From a virus: DNA of 47,067 nucleotides. Positions within the stretch are counted from its first letter, which is position 1. Each line of letters begins with the position of its first letter. Of the stretch, positions 1 to 44,149 are shown one piece after another. The stretch lies in the UHGV virus genome UHGV-0105892, one strand, 5' to 3'. A model generated the notes under the pieces. It saw only the letters and a list, made by a program, of their open reading frames with translations, had not been told where the DNA came from and did no database searches. Made by a program: the position numbers and the translations under genes.

Positions 1-2696
1 CTGATTCGATGGGTGTTTCTATCGGTCAGTTGAGGGCTATGGCCGCTCAGGGGCAGCTAACAACAGACGTTGTAGTTAAGGGGCTTCTGTCACAAGGGGA
101 TGCCATCGGCAAAGAATTTGCCAACACCACCGTCTCAATCGCCAAGGGATTGCAGGTAGCCGGCAACAACATAACTAAATTCTTCGGAGAAAGCTCAACG
201 GTTAAATCATTCTCCGTTGCATTCAGAGACTCTGTTATTTCCGTCAGTGAAAACCTTGATCAACTAGGAAAGATTCTTGCCGTGGTGGCTGCGGTCGTTG
301 GTAGCCGATATGTTGGCGCAATGACAATGGCAGCAGCAGCTACAGCCAAGCAGGTATTAGCTAACCGTCAGTTAGTAATTGCTGAACGAGACTCAACAGC
401 AACAGCAGCATTGCAGGCGCAGGGGCAACTTCGTGCAGCAGAAGCTGCGAAGATTCGCGCCCTTGAAGAAGTCCGACTGGCACAAATGATGAAGTCCACA
501 GCTATTAGCGCAACGCAGGCAGCAGCAGCAGAGGCAGCGTTATCTGCCGCGAGAACGAATGCGGCAACAGCAGCAGGACGTTATAACGCAGCGCTTGAGG
601 CAAACGCAGCGGCGCAAAACACAGCGGCGGCGGCGGCATCTAGAGCGTCTATAGCCACTGGCATTATGCGCGGCGCACTTGGGCTTGTCGGCGGCCCGGT
701 TGGCGCTGCAATGCTTGCTGGCGCAGCAATTTACTACTTCTGGCAGCAGGCTGAAAAAGCAAAAACGGAAGCAAGAGAGCTTGCTGATGGTGTTGAAAAC
801 CTAACCTCAAACATGAAATCCATGAGTCGGGTTCAACTATCAGCAGAAATAGCAAAGTTGCGCGGCACTATCCCACAACTAACTGAAGATGTTGCAGACG
901 CTCAGGATGCATTTAACAAGGCGACAGGTAGAGTTAAAAGCTATCAGCGTGAAATAGATAACTGGGGTGAGTCAACAAAACGAGGTCGGCAAGCGGCGCA
1001 AGCTATGCAAGGTGCGCTTGATGATCAGGCTGTTTCGGTTGCAAATCTTGAGAGCGCACAAAACAGGCTATCTCGCGTACAAAGTACAATCGGCATCGCT
1101 CAGGCACAGGTTAACGGACAATTTAAGCAGGGTATCGACCTGCTAAAAAGGCATGGAGAAGAAACTGGCGTTGTTGCTGGCATGATGAATCAGTTAGGCA
1201 ATTCCTTAAATTTTGCCGCCAAGGCTCAACAAAATTTCAACTCCTCTTCCCTTGTTATTCAGCGTCCTGCAAAAGTTCAGGAATATCTGGATAAACTTAG
1301 CGAGCAGGTAGAGCTGGAAGGTGAACTTGACGAGCGTAAAAGAGCACAGCTACGCGCAGAGAAAGAAATACGTGCGTTGGGTGGAAGTGATGCAGACGTG
1401 AGAATGGCAAGGGAGCGCGCTGGCGCTGAGTACGATTTGATTAAAGCGCGGCAGGACAGGAGAAATGAGGAATCAGCGTCACAGTCAGCAGCGAAAAAGG
1501 CAGCGAGTCAGCAAGAATCAATTGCGCAAAAGCTGGAAAACTTGAGAGAGAAAGCGGAACTTGCTACTGCTTCAACTGCGGAATTATCTAGAGAACAAAC
1601 AATTCTGTCGGCGCAACAATCACTAGGCAAGGCAGCTACAGAAGATCAAATCAGGCTGGCTGGAGAATATGCAGCCAGCGCATATGATGCAGCAAAAGCA
1701 CTTAAAGACCAACAAAAGGCAGAGAAAGAAAAGCAAGAAACTGAGCAAGCATATCAAAATCTTCGCGGTCAGGCTTCACCAACATTTCAGGTAGAAGATC
1801 AGTTTCAGAAGCAAATGCAGTCTCTGGATGCTTATGCCACACTTTACCCACAGAAGATAGCAGAGATTGAGCAGACTCGCGCAGCAATTGAGGCACAATA
1901 TCGCCAGCAGCGAATGGACGCCATGTGGGATGAGTGGCAGCAACAAAGCCTCGGGGCGCAACTTTTTGGCACGGCTCTTGATTCAGCGATGAGTACGGCA
2001 TCAAATAGCATCACTGGATTACTGACAGGTACAATGAGCGTTCAGGATGCCATGCGCAGTCTCGGCTCTACGGTTCTTAACTCTCTGGTAAATAGTTTCG
2101 TCGAAATGGGCGTGCAGTGGGTTAAATCTGCTGTTATGGGTCAGACTGCGCAGGTTGCAGCTACAGCTACCACCACGGCGGCGCAAACAGCAGGACTGGC
2201 AACCACAACGGCAGCATCGACGGCGGCGGCAGCCACCACCACAGCGGCATGGACTCCAGCGGCAATCGTGGCATCAATCGGCTCGTTTGGTGGTGCGGCT
2301 GCAATTGGTGTAGGTGCCGTTCTCGGAGCGCTGGCAATGGGTATCGCTGGCAAGCGAAAAAATGGTGGCCCCGTTAACGCCGGAAGTATGTACGAAGTGG
2401 GCGAGGGAAACGCACCAGAAATATTCCAGGCGAGCACAGGTAGGCAATACATGATACCTGGCAATTCAGGTAAGGTTATCAGCAATAAGGATATTTCCGG
2501 TGGAATCGGCGGTGGCGTTGTGGTCTATAATAATGTTTACAATAATTCAAGCAATGCTAGCGCCACAAGCAGAGCCACTGATAACGGTGATGGCTCTGTT
2601 ACAATTGAGACGATTGTGGCAGATATCGAGGCTGGCGGGCCGATATCAAACGCGATTACCAGCCATACTACTGCAACCAGAAGGGCGACAGAGTAA
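1..2696 (+). CDS. tail tape measure protein, 3' portion; continues in frame from 46470..47067 across the window ends
   Basis: Long Ala/Gln-rich coiled-coil protein with a Gly-rich hydrophobic C-terminal segment. Reading 47067 then 1-2 gives codon gct, so the two pieces join in frame (..VAL-A-DSMGVS..). It sits just downstream of the tail chaperone gene. Confidence 0.8.
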   Translation, partial: DSMGVSIGQLRAMAAQGQLTTDVVVKGLLSQGDAIGKEFANTTVSIAKGLQVAGNNITKFFGESSTVKSFSVAFRDSVISVSENLDQLGKILAVVAAVVGSRYVGAMTMAAAATAKQVLANRQLVIAERDSTATAALQAQGQLRAAEAAKIRALEEVRLAQMMKSTAISATQAAAAEAALSAARTNAATAAGRYNAALEANAAAQNTAAAAASRASIATGIMRGALGLVGGPVGAAMLAGAAIYYFWQQAEKAKTEARELADGVENLTSNMKSMSRVQLSAEIAKLRGTIPQLTEDVADAQDAFNKATGRVKSYQREIDNWGESTKRGRQAAQAMQGALDDQAVSVANLESAQNRLSRVQSTIGIAQAQVNGQFKQGIDLLKRHGEETGVVAGMMNQLGNSLNFAAKAQQNFNSSSLVIQRPAKVQEYLDKLSEQVELEGELDERKRAQLRAEKEIRALGGSDADVRMARERAGAEYDLIKARQDRRNEESASQSAAKKAASQQESIAQKLENLREKAELATASTAELSREQTILSAQQSLGKAATEDQIRLAGEYAASAYDAAKALKDQQKAEKEKQETEQAYQNLRGQASPTFQVEDQFQKQMQSLDAYATLYPQKIAEIEQTRAAIEAQYRQQRMDAMWDEWQQQSLGAQLFGTALDSAMSTASNSITGLLTGTMSVQDAMRSLGSTVLNSLVNSFVEMGVQWVKSAVMGQTAQVAATATTTAAQTAGLATTTAASTAAAATTTAAWTPAAIVASIGSFGGAAAIGVGAVLGALAMGIAGKRKNGGPVNAGSMYEVGEGNAPEIFQASTGRQYMIPGNSGKVISNKDISGGIGGGVVVYNNVYNNSSNASATSRATDNGDGSVTIETIVADIEAGGPISNAITSHTTATRRATE

Positions 2697-2722
2697 AAAG
2701 AGGCCCCTATGGGGCCTTGTTC
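2696..2722. terminator. bidirectional rho-independent terminator between the convergent TMP and homing-endonuclease genes
   Basis: Hairpin aggcccc-tat-ggggcct flanked by an A-run and a T-rich tract (approximate coordinates). Confidence 0.55.
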
Positions 2723-3585
2723 ATTATCTCATCCATTAATTCAGGTGAATACTTAAGCCACTCAGTTGCGCCATCAAACCCTGTCAGTCCTGCACTTTCG
2801 TATTTCTTATGATAGTGCTTTTCAATAGCAAGAGCATCTCCACCTGTTGTTTTTATTTTTGATATGACGTGAAAATCAAATGGTGTATTTTTCCTTAACT
2901 GACAAACTCGACGCCTAAGATTGTTAGTGACCCCAACTTTAATTTCGTTTCCTGAGAACAAGAAGTAAACATAGGCCTCTTCCTTCAGTTTGAACCCTCC
3001 TTTGGAGCAATGAGGACAACCTTGTCCTTGAATGTGCTTGTCTGGCGTCTTTGCAAACCATCCATGTTCTGGACATTTTATCCTCATTTTTGTTGTCACA
3101 TTAATGTATGACAAGCGATCATAATGGTATTTATTCCCATGAATTATAATGGCATCTTTCTTGAACTTATTGAAACCATTAGTTACAGATGCTTTAGTTT
3201 TCTCCCTTGCGCAAACTGGACAACCACACCCATTAAGGTGACTGTTGGCTTCCTGAGAAAACTCAAAATTATGTACCTTGCATATTATTTTTACCTTCTT
3301 GTGACCACCTCTATATTCAACTTTAGAATAATCATAAGAGTCACCATGCTTTGCAATCGCATCAGCCACAAATTCACGCGTTGTTTTCCTCTTATTTCCA
3401 GAGCAAGAAGGGCATCCAGCTCCATTCAAATGAGAGTTTGGAGTCTGCTCGAATAACCCATGCTTACGGCATGTTATCTTTACCTTTATCGAACTTTTTA
3501 TATAAGAAACAGCATCATAAAGATATTTATCACCATGAATCGCTCTGGCTTTTATAATAAATTCTTCAGCGGTTGACTTGCTCAT
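2707..3585 (-). CDS. free-standing homing endonuclease: three tandem Zn-ribbon repeats plus a C-terminal GIY-YIG/T5orf172-like domain
   Basis: About 45-aa repeats of the form KYxYD..(K/R)..I.C.KHG.F.Q.P..HL.G.GCP.C occur three times. The C-terminus reads AYVYFL..KVGVT..RR. It is inserted between the TMP and minor tail genes on the opposite strand. Confidence 0.6.
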   Translation of the reverse strand: MSKSTAEEFIIKARAIHGDKYLYDAVSYIKSSIKVKITCRKHGLFEQTPNSHLNGAGCPSCSGNKRKTTREFVADAIAKHGDSYDYSKVEYRGGHKKVKIICKVHNFEFSQEANSHLNGCGCPVCAREKTKASVTNGFNKFKKDAIIIHGNKYHYDRLSYINVTTKMRIKCPEHGWFAKTPDKHIQGQGCPHCSKGGFKLKEEAYVYFLFSGNEIKVGVTNNLRRRVCQLRKNTPFDFHVISKIKTTGGDALAIEKHYHKKYESAGLTGFDGATEWLKYSPELMDEIMNKAP

Positions 3586-3722
3586 GATTGAACCCTCGGT
3601 TAAAGGTGGTTTGAAGTGATGCAGCAGGCGATAACCAATCGCTTTTCGTCTGGCCGGACTAGCTGCAACTATGATTGTACCATCAACGTGCTAAAATACA
3701 ACAATACAAAATGGAGACTGCC

Positions 3723-4193
3723 ATGCCTATACCTTACCCGAGCTGGTTGCCTTTAGCGCAAAGGGCCAGCAAAAACCTAACGTTTCAGACTCCTTTCAGG
3801 AAGGATACGCCAGCTGTTGGCGCACCAATATTCCAGAAGTTAACAACTGATGTCTGTGCGTCATGGAACCTTACGTGGGTCTTTACGCTCAAGCAGGAGC
3901 GAGCTTTTATTCAGTGGTTAAGAAGCAGCAAATACCTCAATCACTGTAATGAATGGTTCACGATGGATATCGATCTTGGTGGCAGCGGATTACAGAATCA
4001 GACTTTGCACTTTACTGATTACCCCGTGCAGACAAGCATTAATGGCGGCATCGTCACATGGACTGGAAATGTCATCTGTAAAACCCTCAATAACTCCATG
4101 GATGAGTTTGATGATGTGCTTGTTGAGCTTGATGAGAGATGGTTTTCATGGCTCGATGAAGTGGTTAACAGGGATTTACCGGAGTATCCATAA
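3723..4193 (+). CDS. minor tail protein (lambda gpM-like position)
   Basis: First gene of the distal-tail cluster after the TMP. An internal ATG at 3723 has a GGAG SD; the ORF in the track starts at 3675. Confidence 0.45.
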
Positions 4194-4663
4194 TGCCAAC
4201 ATTGCGTGAATACCAGTCAAAAAGGCCAAACTGGAAGCTGTATGACACCATAACCTTTTATCATTCTTCATTTGGTTATGTCCGGCTAGTTGGCAATGAG
4301 TTTTCTGATATTGTACTTGGCGGTCAGACTTACCAGCCAGTGCGTATGGATGTAACCAGAAGCCAGCAATCGAACACGCCGGTAATCAATGCCACGCTGA
4401 AGTTTGCGAGACTGGCAAATGACTTTAAGCAATATTTAAAGTTATGGTCAGGTTCTGGACGCATTGAGCCTATCACTGCGTTATACCAGCGTTTTGACGA
4501 GACTGACAAAAACACACCATTAAAACCATATACGCTTTATGTTAACGATGTGACGCTTGATCATTCTGATGTAACTGTCTCCATATCTATAAAAAACCCA
4601 ATCAATGGCAACGTGGCAAAACTTTATGACATCACAGAATTTCCCGGACTGCGTACCGTTTGA
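4193..4663 (+). CDS. minor tail protein (gpL-like position)
   Basis: Start overlaps the stop of the previous gene (ATGA). Synteny within the tail tip cluster. Confidence 0.45.
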
Positions 4664-4676
4664 CGATTTTGAAAGA

Positions 4677-5084
4677 ATGATGGCTGGCAAGCCATACGTT
4701 GACAGATGCTGTCACGTTGATGCAGTTGACTGCTGGGGTCTGGTGGTGCTTTTCTATCGTCTTTGCATGAATGTTAATGTCCATCATGATGATTCATATT
4801 CAAATGGCGGAGATTTTGCCACTTGCTTCAATGGGGAAGTTTCATTCTGGAAAGACACCGACCATCCCAAAACTGGCGATGTGGTGGTTGCCTATCGCGG
4901 GAGTCACCCGGTACATGTCGCGCTATGGTGGGGTCGTGATAAAATACTGCATGCGCGAGAGAAAACGGCAGTCAAGACAGACCGCCTTAAAACACTCGAA
5001 AAATTATCAACAAAATTAAGGTTCCTGACTTATGCCGGTTATTCACATTCAGAAGATGCCAGGAGTTCCAAAAGAGACGGGTAA
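4677..5084 (+). CDS. tail assembly protein K-like, NlpC/P60 family
   Basis: Cys-His-His triad context [17 protein letters not shown]. The ORF in the track runs from 4605; the ATG at 4677 follows the stop of the previous gene. Confidence 0.6.
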
Positions 5085-7512
5085 TGTTCCTGCTGGCACA
5101 AATCTGTGGAGATGGCTGGAGAATTCCGGTCTTCCATCTGACATCAGGATTGCACTGAATGGCCGCATTTTTGGCCCTGATGATGAATTGTCGATATCGT
5201 TAAAGCAAAACGATATTGTTAACATTTACTGCCAGCCTCGCGGCGCCATTGGCGACCTTATCAGCACGATACTCAAGCCTGTAACTAAGGTTCTTTCTTT
5301 TCTGCTGCCAAAAGCATCAACGCCATCAACCAGCACTGGTGCTACGGTTGAATCACCCAATAACAGCCTGAAATCTCAAACCAATATTGCGCGAAATGGA
5401 GAGGCAAGACCTGACAACTTCGGTCAGATAAGGGCATTCCCTGACCTGATTCAGGAATCGCTTTTTGAATACATTGACGATCTGAAGTACGTCACTGAGT
5501 TCATGAACTTTGGCCTTGGGAAATACACCATTTCTTCGGTTCGCTACGCGGAAACTAATCTTGGCTCCCTGCCGGGGGCAAGTCACGTCATCTACAATCC
5601 AGGCGATGTTATCGGACAAATCATTGAGCCTTACCAGTTCGACGGACTTGATGGTCAGGAGGTTCCAGGGCTTAATGAATCGGAAGACACCCCGATAGAG
5701 ACAGCAACCACGACATCTGTTACCAGCGGAAATTACGCTGGCGGCCAGCTGTTGATGGTCATACCAAAAAACACCGATTTCGATTACTTTATGGGGCTGT
5801 CTCTTCCTCATTCAGTAACATTAACAATAAATATAACTTACAGCACAACGTCAGGTACTGTAACCAAAAACATTGAGCTTAGCGGCAACATCATTTCCGC
5901 CGAGGAAACTGAGACAGGAACTGCGCCTGATATTCAGTATTTTTATAATTTCACCTTCAATAACCTGACTGGCGCAAATCTTGGCAACCTGACCGGCGCA
6001 ACCATCAATAACACTTATTTCCAGATTGTGGATAATGAGGCGCTTGTTGTTGGCCCATATGTTGGAGCCGTGGAATCGACGCAGGTATGGGTTCACGTTC
6101 AATCGGAGCTTGGGCCTACCAGTGGCACGGCAGATTATCTGATCAAGGTATGGGCGGTTGATGATAATGGGGATGCCATTCCAGGAACCGAGGAGCAGAT
6201 CGCAGACAGTATTGACAACCCATTTAATCAGACAACAAAAACCTATTATCGCACGTATAAGTTAACCCCTGCTTATGGGCTGGCTAAGTATGCCATCAGC
6301 ATTGAAAGGACAAACAATTCAAACTCTGGCAACCGCGTAACGTTGCAGGCGGCGCACGCTATCAACATCCGCGAGAATGTGGTTTATCCTGATGACACCC
6401 TTGTTAAAGTGACAGTGAAGGCCACGCTTCAGCCCACATCAGTTACTGAGCGCAAATATAATGCGCTAATCACCCGCTGGACTATTGGATATAACAGAAC
6501 AACCGGGACAGTCGACTATACGTTAACTCCATCAAGAAGTTTTGCAGATTCAGTGCTGCATAACTGGCTTATTACTGCTGGTCAGCCTGAAAGCACTATT
6601 GACGTTGGAAGGCTCTATGAAATAGCTGACGCACTGCCTGATGAGCGTCTTGGTTATTTTGATTACACATTTGACGATGAGGATAAATCGATCGGTGAAC
6701 GAATTCAGACCATCTGTGATGCAGCTCGCGTGACGGTGTTTTGGGATGATGGCGTTTTATCTTTTTCAAGAGATGAGCAAAAATCAACACCTGAAACCGT
6801 GTTCAATACCAGAAATACACAGGCCGATGGCTATAAAATGTCTTATGACATGACTCTGCCGGGGTCATATGATGGAGTAAGTGTTCAGTACCGCGACCCA
6901 AACACCAACAAACAGGCTTACGTTTATTATAAAGTTGGCACTTCTGGTATAGAGCCTGGAGAGCCGACTAAGCCGAAAAAATTCGACATGCTATATGTTC
7001 GGAATCTGTACCAGGCAACAGACCGGGCTATGCTTGAGTGCAATCGTCTGATGTACTCACGCCGAGGCATGGAGATAAAGGCGCTTGCAGATGGCGAGTG
7101 GGTGAACGTTGGCGATATGATTTCTGTTGTCGACATTTATGATTCAGTTCAGCAGACTGGCGTTATCCGTTCAAGGTCTGGAAATGTATTTACCACCAGT
7201 GAACAGCTCACAGCGGGAAGCAGCCTGTTTGTGGTTATCACCGGCGCCAATGGGAATGTATCAGAGCGTTTGGTTTGTACAGTTACCGGTTTGAACACGT
7301 TCGAGTGCGCATTGCCATCTGATTTCGAGTTAAACATTTTTGACGGTGTTAATGTTCAGTCAGAATCAAGATATGCCATCTCAACAGAGGTTGAGCTTGA
7401 CTCAACGTTATGGACAGTCAGCCAGAAAACTCCAGGCACAGATGGCACGGTGTCTCTTACAGTAACTGAGTATAATGACGCCATGTACGCCTACACCAAC
7501 CCTGTTGCGTGA
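5032..7512 (+). CDS. tail tip / host-specificity protein (gpJ-like) with an N-terminal gpI-like segment
   Basis: 826 aa, Thr/Ser/Asn-rich beta-type sequence, positioned after the K-like gene. N-terminal 100 aa look like tail assembly protein I. Overlaps the K-like gene by about 50 nt. Confidence 0.55.
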
Positions 7513-22159: not shown

Positions 22160-22198
22160 GATATGTCCTATGTGAGTTACTCAAAGGACACATATAAA

Positions 22199-22639
22199 AT
22201 GGCAAATCCGAACCCTAAGCACAAATTTTCATCCAGTAATCAGCCGCCACCAAGAGGAAAAAGCTACAGAACAGTGCTTCTTGAAGCATTACGCGCTGCA
22301 AATGCGCCGATGAGTGAGATTGAATTTGTCACGTACTACATCAACAAGGCGATGACATGCGAAGACGCTCAGGCTACCGGCATGCTACGTGAAATATTCC
22401 TGCGACTGAACCCAATTCCAAAACCTGTAGCGCCTCCTGTTGAGTTTGACTTTCCTGCTGACGGCACGCCTGTACAGAAGATGGATGCGATTATCAAGGG
22501 CGTCTCTACTGGCGTTGTTCCAGCCGACATTGGCAAGATGATGGCAGACATTCTGAAGGCTGGGCTTGATATCGAAGAAGTAACAGAGCTTGCGGCGCGC
22601 CTTGAGCGACTTGAGAAATTACTGGAGCAGCAACAGTAA
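22199..22639 (+). CDS. putative terminase small subunit
   Basis: 146 to 158 aa protein immediately upstream of TerL, with a coiled-coil C-terminus. AAGGA SD before the ATG at 22199; the ORF in the track starts at 22163. Confidence 0.4.
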   Translation: MANPNPKHKFSSSNQPPPRGKSYRTVLLEALRAANAPMSEIEFVTYYINKAMTCEDAQATGMLREIFLRLNPIPKPVAPPVEFDFPADGTPVQKMDAIIKGVSTGVVPADIGKMMADILKAGLDIEEVTELAARLERLEKLLEQQQ

Positions 22640-22723
22640 CTGATTTATAATAATTAATGCGGCTAGGGGGCACCCGAAAAGCGGCTCATCACCGCCTGCC
22701 GCATTCACTTCAATGATGCCCTG

Positions 22724-25258
22724 ATGAGGAATCTATATATGGCACGCAAAAGACTCTCAGCACCAGCAATTGAAAAACTCGAAGAGATTATTGGCGATGG
22801 CGTGATTGATGCGCCTGAATCTGCGGTGTTCGGTGTTGTTAATACAGATAAGCAGATTGTTCGCAAACTTAAAATGACGCAAAGCGGAGTTGATGACGTT
22901 AGCGACTCTGATATTGGCGTTGATCACCTGATACCAGAAAAGCTGGAAAAGTTACTTTACCATAAGCGAAATAAAATTGTGTTTGGCGGGCGCGGATGCT
23001 TAGCCATCGGCACGATGGTGAGGATGTTTGATGGTAGCCTAAAACGCGTAGAGGATATCGTTGTTGGCGATAAGGTTATGGGTCCAGACAGTAAACCACG
23101 AAATGTTTTAAGCATATGCCGTGGGTTTGATGACATGTACACGGTTCATCAAAAATATGCTGATGACTACACCGTCAACTCAAGTCACATACTGTCATTA
23201 CGAAAGGTCCCATCTGCTATCAGTGATGAGACGAAAACACCTGATGGTAAAAGAATTTATCGTTATTACCCCAATGACCCGGAAATACTGAATATCGGTG
23301 TTTCAGAATATTTGTCGCGCGCAACTTCCAAAAAGTTCCGCCATGTCTTTAAAGGGTGGCGAACAGGATGGGATTTTAATGACCAAAGCGTCCCAGTTGA
23401 CCCGTACTTTCTTGGTTTATGGTTAGGTGATGGTTCATCTCGTGGTGTTGAAGTGTGCACGCCTGATCCAGAGATAGTTGACTACATTCACAACGTGGCA
23501 AGCAAATACGGGATGCAGGTAAAGGTTCGTGATGATGATAGATGTCCGGTATATGCGATAACCAATGGTAGAGCTGCTGGTATGGGGAAAAACACCAACC
23601 CGTTACTAACTAAAATGCAGCAGCTTGGGGTGATTAATAATAAACACATACCTGACTGCTATATCAAAAACAGCAGGCAGGTAAGACTTCAGATTCTGGC
23701 TGGGCTATTGGATACTGATTCGCATTATGACCAGAAAAAGAAAAGCTATTCTTTCACGTCAATAAATAAAGAAATGGCCTTCTCTTTGATGGATGTGGCA
23801 AGATCGCTTGGCTTCAAGTCAAGCATAATCAAAAAGACTGATGTCACCTTTGAATATAAAGGTGAGAAAAGAATATACGAAAAGGATGTGTGGGAGGTGT
23901 TCGTTAGTGGTGACCTTCATACAATCCCATGCCGAGTAAAAAGGAAGATAGCAGAGAGAACCAAGTCAACTCGCGGGAGGATGACTGAGGTGTCATTGTC
24001 TTATGCCGGGCATGGTGAATACGCTGGGTTCACTCTTGATGGCGATCATCTTTTCTTGCTTGCTGATGGCACGGTTACACACAACAGCGGAAAAACAAGA
24101 ACAGTAACTACAATACTTACGGAGCGTGCACGATTTAAGCCTGACAGGATAGCTTGCTTCCGTGAGATTCAGCAGTCCATTGAAGATAGCTCATATCAGG
24201 AACTGAAGGACGAAATTGATCGCAAGGGAGAAACGAAAGAGTTTCGCGTCATCAACAACGAAATAACGCACAAGGTAACGAAAGCAAAGTTCCGCTTTAA
24301 AGGGCTGTATCGCAACCAGACGACCGTTAAAGGCTTCGCTGGCATTACAGTAGCTTGGGTCGAGGAGGCGGAAAACGTCAGCCAGACAAGCTGGGAAATC
24401 CTCACCCCAACAGTCCGCGCTGAAGGGTCAGAGATATGGGTGACTTTCAACCCAAATAAAGAGCATGACCCGACGTGGAAAATATGGGTTGAGCCTTTTT
24501 ATAATAAATTGCGCGAAAATGGCGGCATCTATGAGGATGATGAAAACCTGATTATCGAGTGTAATTACTCAGACAATCCGTGGTTCTGGGATACTCCGCT
24601 CCCAAGCCAAATGCAGCGCATGAAAGAAACCGACTTCGACCGCTATCAATGGGTGTGGGGTGGGCGCTTTAATAAGCGTAATGATGAGCAGGTATTTGGC
24701 GGTAAGTGGCGCGTTGCTGATTTCGAGGTTAAGCCGGAATGGCATGGGCCTTACTTTGGCATCGACTTTGGATTCTCGCAGGACGCAACGGCGATGGTTG
24801 AGGTTTACATTGAGAAACTTCCTGATGACCGCCGCAACCTTTACGTCGCGCGCGAATACGGCCGTGTAGGCCTTGAGATTACCGACACACCTACAGCGAT
24901 GGAGCAATCATTCCCACTCTCCAGGAAGGCAAGATGGTATGGGGACTGCTCTCGGCCAGAAACAATCAGTCACATCAAACGCGCAGGATTTGATATCCAT
25001 CCATGCAATAAGTGGCCCGGGAGCGTGGAGGAGGGTGTAACCTGGCTCAGGGGTTGTGACGGCATCATCATTCATGACCGCTGCACACAGACTCAGGAAG
25101 AGTTCACTATGTACAGTTACAAGGTGGACAAGCTGACGGGTAACGTGCTCACAAATATTGTGGATGCGTGGAACCACTTCATTGACGCAATCAGATATGC
25201 ATGCAACGATCACATCGTACAGCGCGGCTCTGGATGGATTAGAAGGAGCAGGAGATAA
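22724..25258 (+). CDS. terminase large subunit interrupted by an intein
   Basis: The Walker A motif is split as VFGGRG / intein / SGKTRT. Walker B VAWVEEA follows, and the C-terminal nuclease half is intact. Exteins total 481 aa. Confidence 0.8.
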   Translation: MRNLYMARKRLSAPAIEKLEEIIGDGVIDAPESAVFGVVNTDKQIVRKLKMTQSGVDDVSDSDIGVDHLIPEKLEKLLYHKRNKIVFGGRGCLAIGTMVRMFDGSLKRVEDIVVGDKVMGPDSKPRNVLSICRGFDDMYTVHQKYADDYTVNSSHILSLRKVPSAISDETKTPDGKRIYRYYPNDPEILNIGVSEYLSRATSKKFRHVFKGWRTGWDFNDQSVPVDPYFLGLWLGDGSSRGVEVCTPDPEIVDYIHNVASKYGMQVKVRDDDRCPVYAITNGRAAGMGKNTNPLLTKMQQLGVINNKHIPDCYIKNSRQVRLQILAGLLDTDSHYDQKKKSYSFTSINKEMAFSLMDVARSLGFKSSIIKKTDVTFEYKGEKRIYEKDVWEVFVSGDLHTIPCRVKRKIAERTKSTRGRMTEVSLSYAGHGEYAGFTLDGDHLFLLADGTVTHNSGKTRTVTTILTERARFKPDRIACFREIQQSIEDSSYQELKDEIDRKGETKEFRVINNEITHKVTKAKFRFKGLYRNQTTVKGFAGITVAWVEEAENVSQTSWEILTPTVRAEGSEIWVTFNPNKEHDPTWKIWVEPFYNKLRENGGIYEDDENLIIECNYSDNPWFWDTPLPSQMQRMKETDFDRYQWVWGGRFNKRNDEQVFGGKWRVADFEVKPEWHGPYFGIDFGFSQDATAMVEVYIEKLPDDRRNLYVAREYGRVGLEITDTPTAMEQSFPLSRKARWYGDCSRPETISHIKRAGFDIHPCNKWPGSVEEGVTWLRGCDGIIIHDRCTQTQEEFTMYSYKVDKLTGNVLTNIVDAWNHFIDAIRYACNDHIVQRGSGWIRRSRR
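22997..24085 (+). other. intein (363 aa) with LAGLIDADG homing-endonuclease domain inside TerL
   Basis: Starts at Cys (CLAIGT) and ends ..VTHN followed by Ser. Two LAGLIDADG-like blocks: YFLGLWLGDGSS and LAGLLDTDSHY. Confidence 0.75.
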
Positions 25259-25566: not shown

Positions 25567-25857
25567 TTATTTGTAAAGCCAGCAATGAATCCCTGCGTTG
25601 CGCATGGCGGCATAAATCACGTCATCAGACACGACCGCCATCACCACCCTGTCAGCGTCAATCTGCTGGTGCGATGCCATGATGTCATCATAGAAGACGT
25701 CGTTAGCATGCAGCCACTCATACGCATTCTTTGCTCTCATTATTAGGACGTCGTGACCGGCAGAGTACAGCGACTTAGCCAGCGCAACGTTTCCAGCAAT
25801 AGCATTTCCTTCCGCGTCGCGCAGCACACCATCAAGCTCGAAAATGACACATTTCAT
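25567..25857 (-). CDS. hypothetical protein with degenerate HAD-like N-terminus
   Basis: Starts MKCVIFELDGVL, resembling HAD motif I (DxDG) with the first Asp replaced. Confidence 0.4.
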   Translation of the reverse strand: MKCVIFELDGVLRDAEGNAIAGNVALAKSLYSAGHDVLIMRAKNAYEWLHANDVFYDDIMASHQQIDADRVVMAVVSDDVIYAAMRNAGIHCWLYK

Positions 25858-43992: not shown

Positions 43993-44070
43993 TGGTTCCC
44001 GCGACAGGATTCGAACCTGTAATCATCCGATTATGAGTCGGGTGCTTTAACCAGTTAAGCTAAACGGGAA
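43993..44070 (-). tRNA. tRNA-Met (anticodon CAT; could instead be a lysidine-modified tRNA-Ile)
   Basis: Minus-strand sequence TTCCCGTTTAGCTTAACTGGTTAAAGCACCCGACTCATAATCGGATGATTACAGGTTCGAATCCTGTCGCGGGAACCA. 7-bp acceptor stem, GGTTCGAATCC T-loop, CCA end encoded. Confidence 0.75.
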
Positions 44071-44072
44071 TT

Positions 44073-44149
44073 TGGTGCACCATACTGGATTCGAACCAGT
44101 TACCGATTGCTTAGAAGGCAATTGCTCTATCCTGATGAGCTAATGGCGC
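44073..44149 (-). tRNA. tRNA-Arg (anticodon TCT)
   Basis: Minus-strand sequence GCGCCATTAGCTCATCAGGATAGAGCAATTGCCTTCTAAGCAATCGGTAACTGGTTCGAATCCAGTATGGTGCACCA. Anticodon loop cTTCTAa; CCA end encoded. Confidence 0.75.

What the first reader, a model, noticed from the sequence alone, without database searches (positions are those of the whole stretch)
22997..24085. Intein with LAGLIDADG endonuclease splits the Walker-A loop of the large terminase
The TerL P-loop reads VFGGRG, then the intein, then SGKTRT. The insert begins with Cys, ends with His-Asn followed by Ser, and carries two LAGLIDADG blocks. Removing it leaves a 481-aa TerL. The terminase ATPase would be inactive until protein splicing, so splicing efficiency could gate packaging. 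Interruptions of this exact motif by mobile elements are uncommon among T1-like phages.
Basis: seen in the sequence. Interest (0 to 1): 0.55.

Follow-up and report, generated by a model that had tools for sequence, protein, structure and literature searches.

The report
Mobile intein splitting a phage terminase

Summary
Nt 22997-24085 encode a 363-aa intein inside the only terL gene (a Terminase_3 protein). The junctions read FGGRG|CLAIG...TVTHN|SGKTRT, so splicing would rebuild the Walker A motif GGRGSGKT.

The insert matches the Pfam Hint and LAGLIDADG families. It aligns end to end with yeast PI-SceI, and a confident AlphaFold model (pLDDT 93) superposes on PI-SceI (TM about 0.77). All splicing and endonuclease catalytic residues are present and invariant in 14 distinct copies, and dN/dS is about 0.17. 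Close relatives (KP591P1, VLCpiS13c) lack exactly these 363 residues.

The intein travels in a module of about 1.7-1.9 kb that is 93-98% identical between phage backbones only 71-87% identical elsewhere. That is a signature of homing or recombination.

- The phage belongs to the Roufvirus/Segzyvirus group and is not T1-like.
- The likely start is ATG 22739, giving a mature TerL of 476 aa and 55 kDa.
- P-loops are the classic intein hotspot, not an uncommon site.
- Nothing supports regulated splicing.

One modest new point: the site (G|SGKT) lies three residues upstream of the K|S site used by the other Terminase_3 inteins found. Verdict: a new member of a known kind, of low to moderate interest.

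The parts
22739..25258 (+). terL precursor gene (839 codons plus stop). The first in-frame ATG is at 22724, but 22739 is the likely start.
   Evidence: ORF. Pfam Terminase_3 (E 1e-31, entering the profile at position 12 just after the insert) and Terminase_3C. GAGGA Shine-Dalgarno 8 nt upstream of 22739, and all relatives start MARKR. It is the only terL in the window.
22739..22996 (+). N-extein (86 aa), ending in the first half of Walker A (GGRG, nt 22985-22996).
   Evidence: This N-extein variant is 98-99% identical in all intein-containing phages but only 57-58% identical (amino acids) to the closest intein-free relatives.
22997..24085 (+). Intein, 363 aa (41.1 kDa), PI-SceI type: a Hint splicing domain with an embedded LAGLIDADG endonuclease.
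   Evidence: Pfam. PDB phmmer match to PI-SceI over residues 1-55 and 133-363. AF2 pLDDT 93.4 and Foldseek TM 0.75-0.78 to 1EF0/1LWT/1VDE. Precisely absent from KP591P1 and VLCpiS13c.
22997..23200 (+). N-terminal splicing blocks. Block A is Cys1 (CLAIGTMVRMFDG, 22997-23035). Block B is YTVNSSHILSL, with Asn61 and His64 (23168-23200).
   Evidence: for coordinates. His64 is invariant and Asn61 at least 90% conserved in the 59-sequence alignment. Both are invariant in 14 copies.
23372..23965 (+). LAGLIDADG homing-endonuclease domain (approximate limits, intein residues about 126-323). Motif 1 is at 23402-23440 (Asp145), Lys216 lies within 23636-23653, and motif 2 is at 23684-23725 (Asp241, followed by Ser242 where the family has Gly).
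   Evidence: In the HMMER alignment, Asp145, Lys216 and Asp241 line up with PI-SceI Asp218, Lys301 and Asp326. Asp145 and Asp241 are invariant across 59 homologues. dN/dS is 0.19 in this domain. The domain gives I-DmoI-like fold matches.
24020..24085 (+). C-terminal splicing blocks F (YAGFTLDGDHLFLLADG) and G (TVTHN), ending in His362-Asn363.
   Evidence: His362 and Asn363 are at least 90% conserved in the family and invariant in 14 copies.
24086..25258 (+). C-extein (390 aa plus stop). It starts with the +1 Ser nucleophile and the second half of Walker A (SGKT, 24086-24097), followed by the rest of the ATPase and the RNaseH-like nuclease domain.
22628..24500 (+). Approximate extent of the exchanged module: spacer, N-extein, intein and the proximal C-extein.
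   Evidence: Identity profiles. Against Segz_1, identity is 93-98% here but 71-87% outside. Against intein-free KP591P1, identity is 93-98% outside, undetectable in the N-extein, and 84, then 92, then 96% moving away from the site. The left edge was mapped.
22656..22719 (+). Match to Rfam RF02996 (int-alpA RNA) in the spacer upstream of terL. It lies inside the exchanged module, and its function here is unknown.
   Evidence: 47.7 bits against a gathering score of 35.8, covering the full model.

Best explanation
This is a canonical class 1 mobile intein of the PI-SceI type, inserted in frame in the Walker A loop of a Terminase_3 large terminase.

The 96-kDa precursor is expected to be inactive as an ATPase because a 41-kDa insert splits its P-loop. 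It should mature by the standard four-step splicing reaction:
1. An N-S acyl shift at Cys1.
2. Transesterification onto the +1 Ser.
3. Cyclisation of Asn363, helped by His362.
4. An O-N shift that forms the Gly-Ser bond.

The product is a 55-kDa TerL with an intact GGRGSGKT motif, plus a free 41-kDa intein. The free intein is a LAGLIDADG homing endonuclease. During mixed infection it would cut a terL allele that has the uninterrupted cognate site, and recombinational repair would then copy in the intein together with flanking extein sequence.

Shown here: the anatomy, the fold, the conserved catalytic residues, purifying selection, precise absence from relatives, and exchange of the intein-bearing module between divergent phage backbones. 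Inferred: that splicing occurs (it must, because isolated plaque-forming relatives have the same interrupted single-copy terL), that splicing is constitutive, and that the endonuclease is still active.
For: Boundaries and motifs.
Pfam Hint, Hom_end, LAGLIDADG_3 and a split Terminase_3.
End-to-end similarity to PI-SceI with aligned catalytic Asp, Lys and Asp.
AF2 pLDDT 93.4 with Foldseek TM 0.75-0.78 to PI-SceI.
Intein-free orthologues KP591P1 and VLCpiS13c, with a clean 363-residue gap.
Only one terL and one Hint domain in the window.
14 distinct intact copies, with dN/dS 0.17 overall and 0.19 in the endonuclease domain, and all key residues invariant.
An island of 93-98% identity around the intein between backbones that are 71-87% identical, and the mirror-image pattern against the intein-free KP591P1.
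Complete linkage of the N-extein variant with the intein.
Published precedent that TerL P-loop inteins splice efficiently and can encode active endonucleases: PMC5050341.
Against: No experiment was possible, so splicing and DNA cleavage are both inferred. No uninterrupted allele with the cognate site was found in the viral, metagenome or genome collections, so there is no visible target population and ongoing homing cannot be shown. Every intein-free relative differs at 16-19 of the 48 nt around the site. Ser242 replaces the near-invariant Gly after the second catalytic Asp, which could weaken the endonuclease. The identity island could also come from ordinary modular recombination at gene borders without any endonuclease cut.
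Confidence: 0.88

Rival explanations
1. The intein still splices, but its endonuclease is inactive or no longer has targets. The element is fixed in this terL lineage and spreads only by ordinary homologous recombination of the terS-terL region between co-infecting phages.
For: No cognate empty site in any collection, while occupied junctions are found 13 and 7 times. Ser242 replaces the conserved Gly of LAGLIDADG motif 2. The left edge of the exchanged module coincides with a gene end, as is usual in phage mosaicism.
Against: dN/dS is 0.19 in the endonuclease domain, no higher than in the C-terminal splicing part (0.24). Asp145, Lys216 and Asp241 are invariant in 14 copies. A functionless domain would be expected to decay or be deleted to leave a mini-intein. 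On the C-extein side, identity falls off gradually from the insertion site, as co-conversion tracts do.
Confidence: 0.3
2. One reading: splicing is conditional or slow, and it acts as a post-translational switch that times or gates DNA packaging.
For: The insert sits in the catalytic loop, so activity strictly depends on splicing. Kelley et al. argue for regulatory potential in phage inteins, particularly those with a non-canonical penultimate residue, and through Cys chemistry (PMC5050341).
Against: All catalytic residues are canonical, including the penultimate His. The five TerL inteins tested by Kelley et al. spliced readily. Close relatives do well without the intein, so no regulatory role is required. 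The location is fully explained by the known preference of this intein clade for P-loops.
Confidence: 0.08
3. The 363-aa segment is an ordinary accessory domain of this TerL and not a splicing element.
For: None beyond the continuous reading frame.
Against: Orthologues at 84-91% identity lack it precisely. It has every intein block and the PI-SceI fold. It splits the Walker A motif, which no functional ATPase could tolerate.
Confidence: 0.01

Closest known systems
PI-SceI (Saccharomyces cerevisiae VMA1 intein; PDB 1VDE, 1LWS, 1EF0)
   Same: The same bifunctional architecture: a Hint splicing domain with an embedded two-motif LAGLIDADG endonuclease. Both have Cys1, an NxxH block B, a terminal His-Asn and Gly at -1. 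The catalytic Asp, Lys and Asp align. Sequence E-value is 3e-21 and TM is 0.75-0.78.
   Different: This intein has 363 aa against 454, and identity is about 23%. The +1 residue is Ser, not Cys. PI-SceI lies 19 residues after the Walker A motif of VMA1 (the intein starts at residue 284 and Walker A is at 257-264), whereas this one lies inside the loop. The host is a phage terminase, not a V-ATPase.
Mycobacteriophage TerL inteins at sites TerL1-a and TerL1-b (Kelley et al. 2016, PMC5050341)
   Same: These are class 1 inteins inserted in the Walker A P-loop of a large terminase ATPase domain. They were shown to splice, and some were shown to have active LAGLIDADG endonucleases.
   Different: Their hosts are Terminase_1 and Terminase_6 proteins of actinobacteriophages. 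That survey found none in other terminase families. Site a lies between Lys and Thr, and the present site is three residues upstream (G|SGKT), in a Terminase_3 protein of enterobacterial phages.
Other Terminase_3 inteins from metagenomes (P0005, P0021, P0024, P0052)
   Same: The same intein clade (about 40% identity) in the same host family. They share local signatures such as DGTVTHN|S. They fall in the sister group of the window's intein in an NJ tree, although P0021 does so in only 18 of 200 bootstraps.
   Different: All four sit at the classic GSGK|S position, three codons downstream of this one. Bootstrap support for the grouping is only moderate: P0024 is in the sister group in 105 of 200 replicates.
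Helicase P-loop inteins of Klebsiella and Salmonella phages (JD001 gp48, FSL SP-031 gp02, St162 'intein-containing helicase')
   Same: The nearest relatives among deposited phage genomes (38-39% identity), with the same architecture and also inside a Walker A loop.
   Different: The host is an SF2 helicase. The site is GxGK|T and the +1 residue is Thr.

Membership tests
Class 1 intein (Hint-domain protein-splicing element) | Cys, Ser or Thr nucleophile at intein position 1 | tested here: met
   Cys1 (TGC, 22997-22999), invariant in 14 copies.
Class 1 intein (Hint-domain protein-splicing element) | Block B histidine (T/NxxH) | tested here: met
   N61-S-S-H64. His64 is invariant across 59 homologues.
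Class 1 intein (Hint-domain protein-splicing element) | Blocks F and G ending in His-Asn, followed by a Ser, Thr or Cys +1 extein residue | tested here: met
   YAGFTLDGDHLFLLADG and TVTHN|S. These align to the C-terminus of PI-SceI.
Class 1 intein (Hint-domain protein-splicing element) | In-frame insertion that is precisely absent from orthologues, and whose removal restores a conserved host motif | tested here: met
   KP591P1 and VLCpiS13c TerL show a clean 363-residue gap. Removal of the insert rebuilds GGRGSGKT.
Class 1 intein (Hint-domain protein-splicing element) | Hint fold | tested here: met
   AF2 pLDDT 93.4. Foldseek matches PI-SceI at TM 0.75-0.78, and the Prp8 mini-inteins match the Hint part.
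Class 1 intein (Hint-domain protein-splicing element) | Demonstrated protein splicing | not testable with these tools
   Inferred only. There is a single terL copy, and isolated plaque-forming phages carry the same allele.
LAGLIDADG homing endonuclease (PI-SceI-like; Pfam Hom_end / LAGLIDADG_3) | Two LAGLIDADG motifs, each with a catalytic acidic residue | tested here: met
   Asp145 and Asp241 align with PI-SceI Asp218 and Asp326 and are invariant in 59 homologues. Ser242 replaces the usual Gly.
LAGLIDADG homing endonuclease (PI-SceI-like; Pfam Hom_end / LAGLIDADG_3) | Endonuclease-domain fold | tested here: met
   Pfam Hom_end E 2e-10 and LAGLIDADG_3 E 6e-8. Foldseek matches PI-SceI, PI-PfuI and I-DmoI.
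LAGLIDADG homing endonuclease (PI-SceI-like; Pfam Hom_end / LAGLIDADG_3) | Site-specific cleavage of the intein-less allele, and homing | not testable with these tools
   Indirect evidence only: purifying selection and an identity island with decaying flanks.
LAGLIDADG homing endonuclease (PI-SceI-like; Pfam Hom_end / LAGLIDADG_3) | Existence of cognate uninterrupted target alleles in the population | tested here: inconclusive
   No exact 32-mer junction hits in viral, metagenome or genome contigs, against 13 and 7 occupied junctions. Known intein-free alleles differ at 16-19 of 48 nt.
Terminase_3 large terminase (PF04466 + PF17288) | N-terminal P-loop ATPase and C-terminal RNaseH-like nuclease domain | tested here: met
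   Terminase_3 E 1e-31 and Terminase_3C E 2e-13, both above the curated cut-offs.
T1-like phages (Drexlerviridae) | Genome and TerL relatedness to T1-group phages | tested here: not met
   The nearest genomes are Roufvirus, Segzyvirus, Saltrevirus and Shuimuvirus, with no family assigned. No Drexlerviridae appeared in a spread sample of 1242 TerL-homologue records.
TerL1-a/b P-loop inteins of Kelley et al. 2016 | Terminase_1 host and insertion between (or adjacent to) the Walker A Lys and Thr | tested here: not met
   The host is Terminase_3. The site is G|SGKT, three residues upstream of K|T. It works like these inteins but is a different allele.

The most novel reading that the evidence does not exclude
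The terL P-loop and the terS-terL junction of this phage group may be a battleground between homing elements and their targets. On this reading, the closest intein-free relatives have been selected to escape the intein's endonuclease. Every one encodes the +1 Ser as TCN, not AGC. Several carry deviant Walker A motifs (GGRGSSKT, GGRASTKT). All have an N-extein only 57% identical. More distant relatives carry a free-standing HNH endonuclease at the same junction, behind the same conserved int-alpA-like structured spacer. In this view the intein endonuclease would act as a weapon in phage-phage competition by cutting a competitor's essential packaging gene, and would shape the sequence of an ATPase active site.
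Probability: 0.15. Interest if true: 0.55.

Novelty: new member of a known kind. Interest (0 to 1): 0.3.

Why it matters
Inteins in terminase P-loops are established biology, so the finding mainly improves annotation. These phages, several of them Klebsiella and Salmonella phages of therapeutic interest, are deposited with a plain 'terminase large subunit' of 839 aa and no mention of the intein. None of the papers in the searched library that discuss them mentions it either.

Three modest additions:
- It extends TerL inteins to the Terminase_3 family in enterobacterial phages, at an insertion point three codons from the one used by related Terminase_3 inteins.
- It gives a clean natural example of an intein-bearing module moving between genus-level-different phage backbones.
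- Together with the HNH-occupied and small-ORF variants, it marks the terS-terL junction as a hotspot for mobile endonucleases.

The compact 363-aa PI-SceI-like enzyme could also be of practical interest as a new LAGLIDADG specificity or splicing tool.

Tried and rejected
- A nucleotide MAFFT alignment of the full genes misplaced the short N-extein of the intein-free alleles. I redid it on extein-only sequences.
- I looked for a second Hint domain or a second terL in the window and found none.
- I looked for an uninterrupted cognate homing site in IMG/VR, JGI metagenomes and GTDB genomes and found none. Neither junction occurs in bacterial genomes, so there is no evidence of a prophage reservoir.
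- I asked whether the intein shares PI-SceI's insertion context. It does not, because PI-SceI lies 19 residues past the VMA1 P-loop.
- I asked whether the intein groups with inteins that share its G|xGK position. It does not. It groups weakly with the Terminase_3 K|S inteins. An earlier version of that tree calculation timed out.
- Salmonella phage 64795_sal3 looked like a possible case of the intein-type N-extein without the intein. Its record is simply broken inside terL, so it is uninformative.
- I searched the literature for any mention of an intein in pIS4-A, pYD38-A, KpV2811 or Segz_1, or in Klebsiella phage terminases of this group, and found none in the held library.
- The promoter and terminator scan found no internal promoter or terminator suggesting separate expression of the insert.
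- A literature search for the int-alpA RNA motif returned only papers on the int-alpA gene pair.
Full report
**1. What is in the sequence**

A single 844-codon ORF runs from 22724 to 25258 on the + strand. Nt 22997-24085 are 1089 nt (363 codons) in frame. They start with TGC (Cys), end with CAC AAC (His-Asn), and are followed by AGC (Ser). The junctions read RNKIVFGGRG|CLAIGTMVRM...LLADGTVTHN|SGKTRTVTTI.

Removing the insert joins GGRG (22985-22996) to SGKT (24086-24097). The result is a perfect Walker A motif, GxxxxGKT. Pfam finds Terminase_3 (E 1e-31), and the match enters the profile at position 12 immediately after the insert. It also finds Terminase_3C, and inside the insert Hom_end_hint (3e-21), Hom_end (2e-10) and LAGLIDADG_3 (6e-8), all above their curated cut-offs.

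One correction concerns the start codon. The ATG at 22739 has a GAGGA Shine-Dalgarno sequence 8 nt upstream, and every relative, with or without the intein, starts MARKR at that position. The precursor is therefore more likely 839 aa (96.4 kDa), the intein 41.1 kDa, and the mature TerL 476 aa (55.3 kDa).

**2. It is an intein and not a domain**

TerL of Klebsiella phages KP591P1 (91% identical) and VLCpiS13c (84%) is 476 aa. It aligns with a clean gap covering exactly the 363 residues, reading FGGRG·SSKTRT.

The insert aligns end to end with yeast PI-SceI in the PDB (E 3e-21, over residues 1-55 and 133-363). In that alignment Asp145, Lys216 and Asp241 fall on PI-SceI Asp218, Lys301 and Asp326, which I recall as its endonuclease active-site residues. 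The block F and G region (YAGFTLDGDHLFLLADGTVTHN) falls on YYGITLSDDSDHQFLLANQVVVHN.

An AlphaFold2 model built from 59 aligned homologues is confident (mean pLDDT 93.4, pTM 0.90). Its best PDB matches are the PI-SceI structures (E about 1e-28, TM 0.75-0.78), then the Thermococcus and Pyrococcus VMA inteins, PI-PfuI and I-DmoI.

In the 59-sequence alignment, block B His64 and the two LAGLIDADG Asp residues are invariant. Asn61, Lys216, His362 and Asn363 are at least 90% conserved. The one deviation is Ser242 where the family has Gly after the second catalytic Asp. The window holds no other Hint domain and no second terL.

**3. Distribution and selection**

The same interrupted gene, with the intein 95-97% identical in amino acids, occurs in seven deposited phages:
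- Aeromonas phage pIS4-A
- Vibrio phage pYD38-A
- Klebsiella virus KpV2811
- Salmonella phages Segz_1, ST44, ST46 and ST65

It also occurs in 13 IMG/VR genomes, two of which appear from their contig lengths to be KpV2811 and Segz_1, and in 7 metagenome contigs.

The 14 distinct nucleotide versions are all intact. Mean dN/dS is 0.17 overall, 0.09 and 0.24 in the two splicing parts, and 0.19 in the endonuclease part. Cys1, Asn61, His64, Asp145, Lys216, Asp241, His362 and Asn363 are invariant. Because these relatives are isolated, plaque-forming phages with a single terL, splicing must occur. That is an inference, not a measurement.

**4. Evidence for mobility**

Against Segz_1 (intein-plus, a different genus), the window is 71-87% identical in the flanks. 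Identity is 93-98% from about 22700 through the intein, then falls to 92, 88, 84 and 72% along the C-extein.

Against KP591P1 (intein-free), the pattern is the mirror image. Identity is 93-97% upstream and 91-98% in the distal C-extein. It falls to 84% next to the site, and the N-extein shows no detectable DNA similarity: about 46-63% nucleotide identity over most of it and 57% amino-acid identity, against 98% for the C-extein.

The left edge of the divergent block lies at the end of the upstream gene, at about 22628. The intein-type N-extein is found at 98-99% identity in the 11 intein-containing records and at 58% or less in the other full-length matches. The apparent exception, 64795_sal3, is a record broken inside terL.

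So a module of about 1.7-1.9 kb (spacer, N-extein, intein and proximal C-extein) has been exchanged between backbones. Homing with co-conversion would produce this pattern. Ordinary recombination cannot be excluded.

No uninterrupted cognate site exists in IMG/VR, the JGI metagenomes or the GTDB genomes. All intein-free alleles differ at 16-19 of the 48 nt around the site. All of them encode the +1 Ser as TCN where the intein-bearing alleles have AGC.

**5. Relation to known inteins**

Kelley et al. 2016 (PMC5050341) found TerL to be the main intein host in mycobacteriophages, with seven sites, all in the ATPase domain. Sites a and b lie in the Walker A loop, with site a between Lys and Thr. 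In that survey only Terminase_1 and Terminase_6-like proteins carried inteins. The inteins tested spliced readily, and some had active endonucleases. An intein in a terminase P-loop is therefore a known kind of thing.

Two details differ here. The host is a Terminase_3 protein of phages infecting enterobacteria. The insertion point is G|SGKT, three residues upstream of the classic K|[ST] position.

Homologues of this intein (36-46% identical) occur across P-loop NTPases: DnaB, SF2 helicases, PhoH, thymidine kinase, AAA_24, RecA and ABC proteins. Of the 58 examined, 36 sit at GK|[ST] and 13 at G|[ST]GK[ST]. The position itself therefore recurs in this clade.

The four other Terminase_3 inteins found (P0005, P0021, P0024, P0052) all sit at K|S. 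In a neighbour-joining tree the window's intein groups with these and not with the inteins that share its site. Support is only moderate: P0024 is in the sister group in 105 of 200 bootstraps. This hints at a three-codon shift of site within one host family.

PI-SceI, the closest solved relative, is not in a P-loop. In unspliced VMA1 (PDB 9cop) Walker A is at residues 257-264 and the intein starts at residue 284. The nearest relatives in deposited phage genomes (38-39% identical) are helicase inteins at GxGK|T in JD001, FSL SP-031 and others.

**6.

The core claim is correct: an intein with a LAGLIDADG endonuclease splits Walker A, and the ATPase is inactive until splicing.

'T1-like' is not supported. 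The relatives are Roufvirus, Segzyvirus, Saltrevirus and Shuimuvirus, with no family assigned, and no Drexlerviridae appeared among the sampled TerL homologues.

'Uncommon' is misleading, because P-loops are the favoured intein site. The gating idea has no support. All catalytic residues are canonical, including the penultimate His, and close relatives do without the intein.

**7. Side observations**

The roughly 100-nt spacer upstream of terL contains a full-length match, above the gathering threshold, to Rfam RF02996 (int-alpA RNA) at 22656-22719. The same spacer is 93-99% identical in IME207, Sf11, SEzh_1, Bas81 and EcoIv28. In IME207, the one examined in detail, it is followed by a free-standing HNH_3+AP2 homing endonuclease gene and then an intein-free terL.

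KP591P1-type phages have a 51-codon ORF in place of the spacer. The junction between the upstream gene and terL therefore exists in at least three states, two of which involve homing endonucleases.

**8. Verdict**

This is a real, well-formed and probably active mobile intein. It is a new member of a known kind, and apparently unannotated in the deposited genomes. Interest is low to moderate.

Noticed in passing
window 22656-22719 (+): Full-length match to Rfam RF02996 (int-alpA RNA; 47.7 bits against a gathering score of 35.8) in the spacer directly upstream of terL. It is the only non-tRNA Rfam hit in the window. Its role in a phage packaging region is unknown. The simple MFE fold of the spacer is no more stable than shuffled sequences (z = -0.5).
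   Followed up: partly
window 22640-22741; L058 (IME207) 445-2476: The terL-upstream spacer, including its RBS and ATG, is 93-99% identical in IME207, Sf11, SEzh_1, Bas81 and EcoIv28. In IME207, the one examined, it drives a free-standing HNH_3+AP2 homing endonuclease gene inserted just before an intein-free terL (58% identical in the N-extein). Two different endonuclease-bearing elements therefore occupy the same neighbourhood in different phages.
   Followed up: partly
L001 (KP591P1) 2592-2747; L004 2586-2741: Intein-free close relatives carry a 51-codon ORF (no Pfam hit) between the upstream gene and terL, in place of the spacer seen in intein-plus phages.
   Followed up: partly
L001, L004, L008 (GGRGSSKT); L031 (GGRASTKT): The closest intein-free TerL relatives have deviant Walker A motifs, with Ser or Thr where the canonical Gly precedes the Lys. 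All of them use TCN for the Ser that is AGC in intein-bearing alleles. This may reflect escape from the homing endonuclease, or simply lineage divergence.
   Followed up: partly
window 22724 vs 22739: The first in-frame ATG (22724) is probably not the start codon. ATG 22739 has a GAGGA Shine-Dalgarno 8 nt upstream and matches the MARKR start of all relatives.
   Followed up: yes
window 23720-23722 (intein Ser242): Ser replaces the Gly that is at least 90% conserved after the second LAGLIDADG catalytic Asp. The Ser is invariant in all 14 copies of this intein. Its effect on endonuclease activity is unknown.
   Followed up: partly
L005 (NC_020204.1, JD001 gp48) 2393-5089: RefSeq labels this protein 'terminase large subunit', but it is an intein-containing SF2 helicase (ResIII and Helicase_C, with a Hint/LAGLIDADG insert at GxGK|T). 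The GenBank record calls it 'putative helicase'.
   Followed up: yes
L057 (KX017520.1, Salmonella phage 64795_sal3), record ends: This 'complete genome' record ends inside the terL N-extein (window-equivalent 22836) and restarts at window-equivalent 24781. About 1.9 kb is missing, including the whole intein region, which suggests an assembly break at the intein.
   Followed up: partly
window 43996-44069 and 44076-44149 (-): Two adjacent tRNA genes (Rfam RF00005, 60 and 65 bits).
   Followed up: no
window 25567-25857 (-): A 96-aa ORF matches only part of PHROG 415 (polynucleotide kinase; profile positions 21-164 of 218). It may be a truncated or minimal version.
   Followed up: no
L002 (pIS4-A), pYD38-A, KpV2811, Segz_1 terL loci: Phages recorded as infecting Aeromonas, Vibrio, Klebsiella and Salmonella share terL at 90-97% nucleotide identity. 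This is either an unusually wide host spread for the group or doubtful host assignments for the 2011 lake isolates.
   Followed up: no
window 22163-22639 (+): The gene in the usual small-terminase position (158 aa, PHROG 9747, function unknown) has no Pfam match. Its 3' end marks the left boundary of the exchanged intein module.
   Followed up: partly
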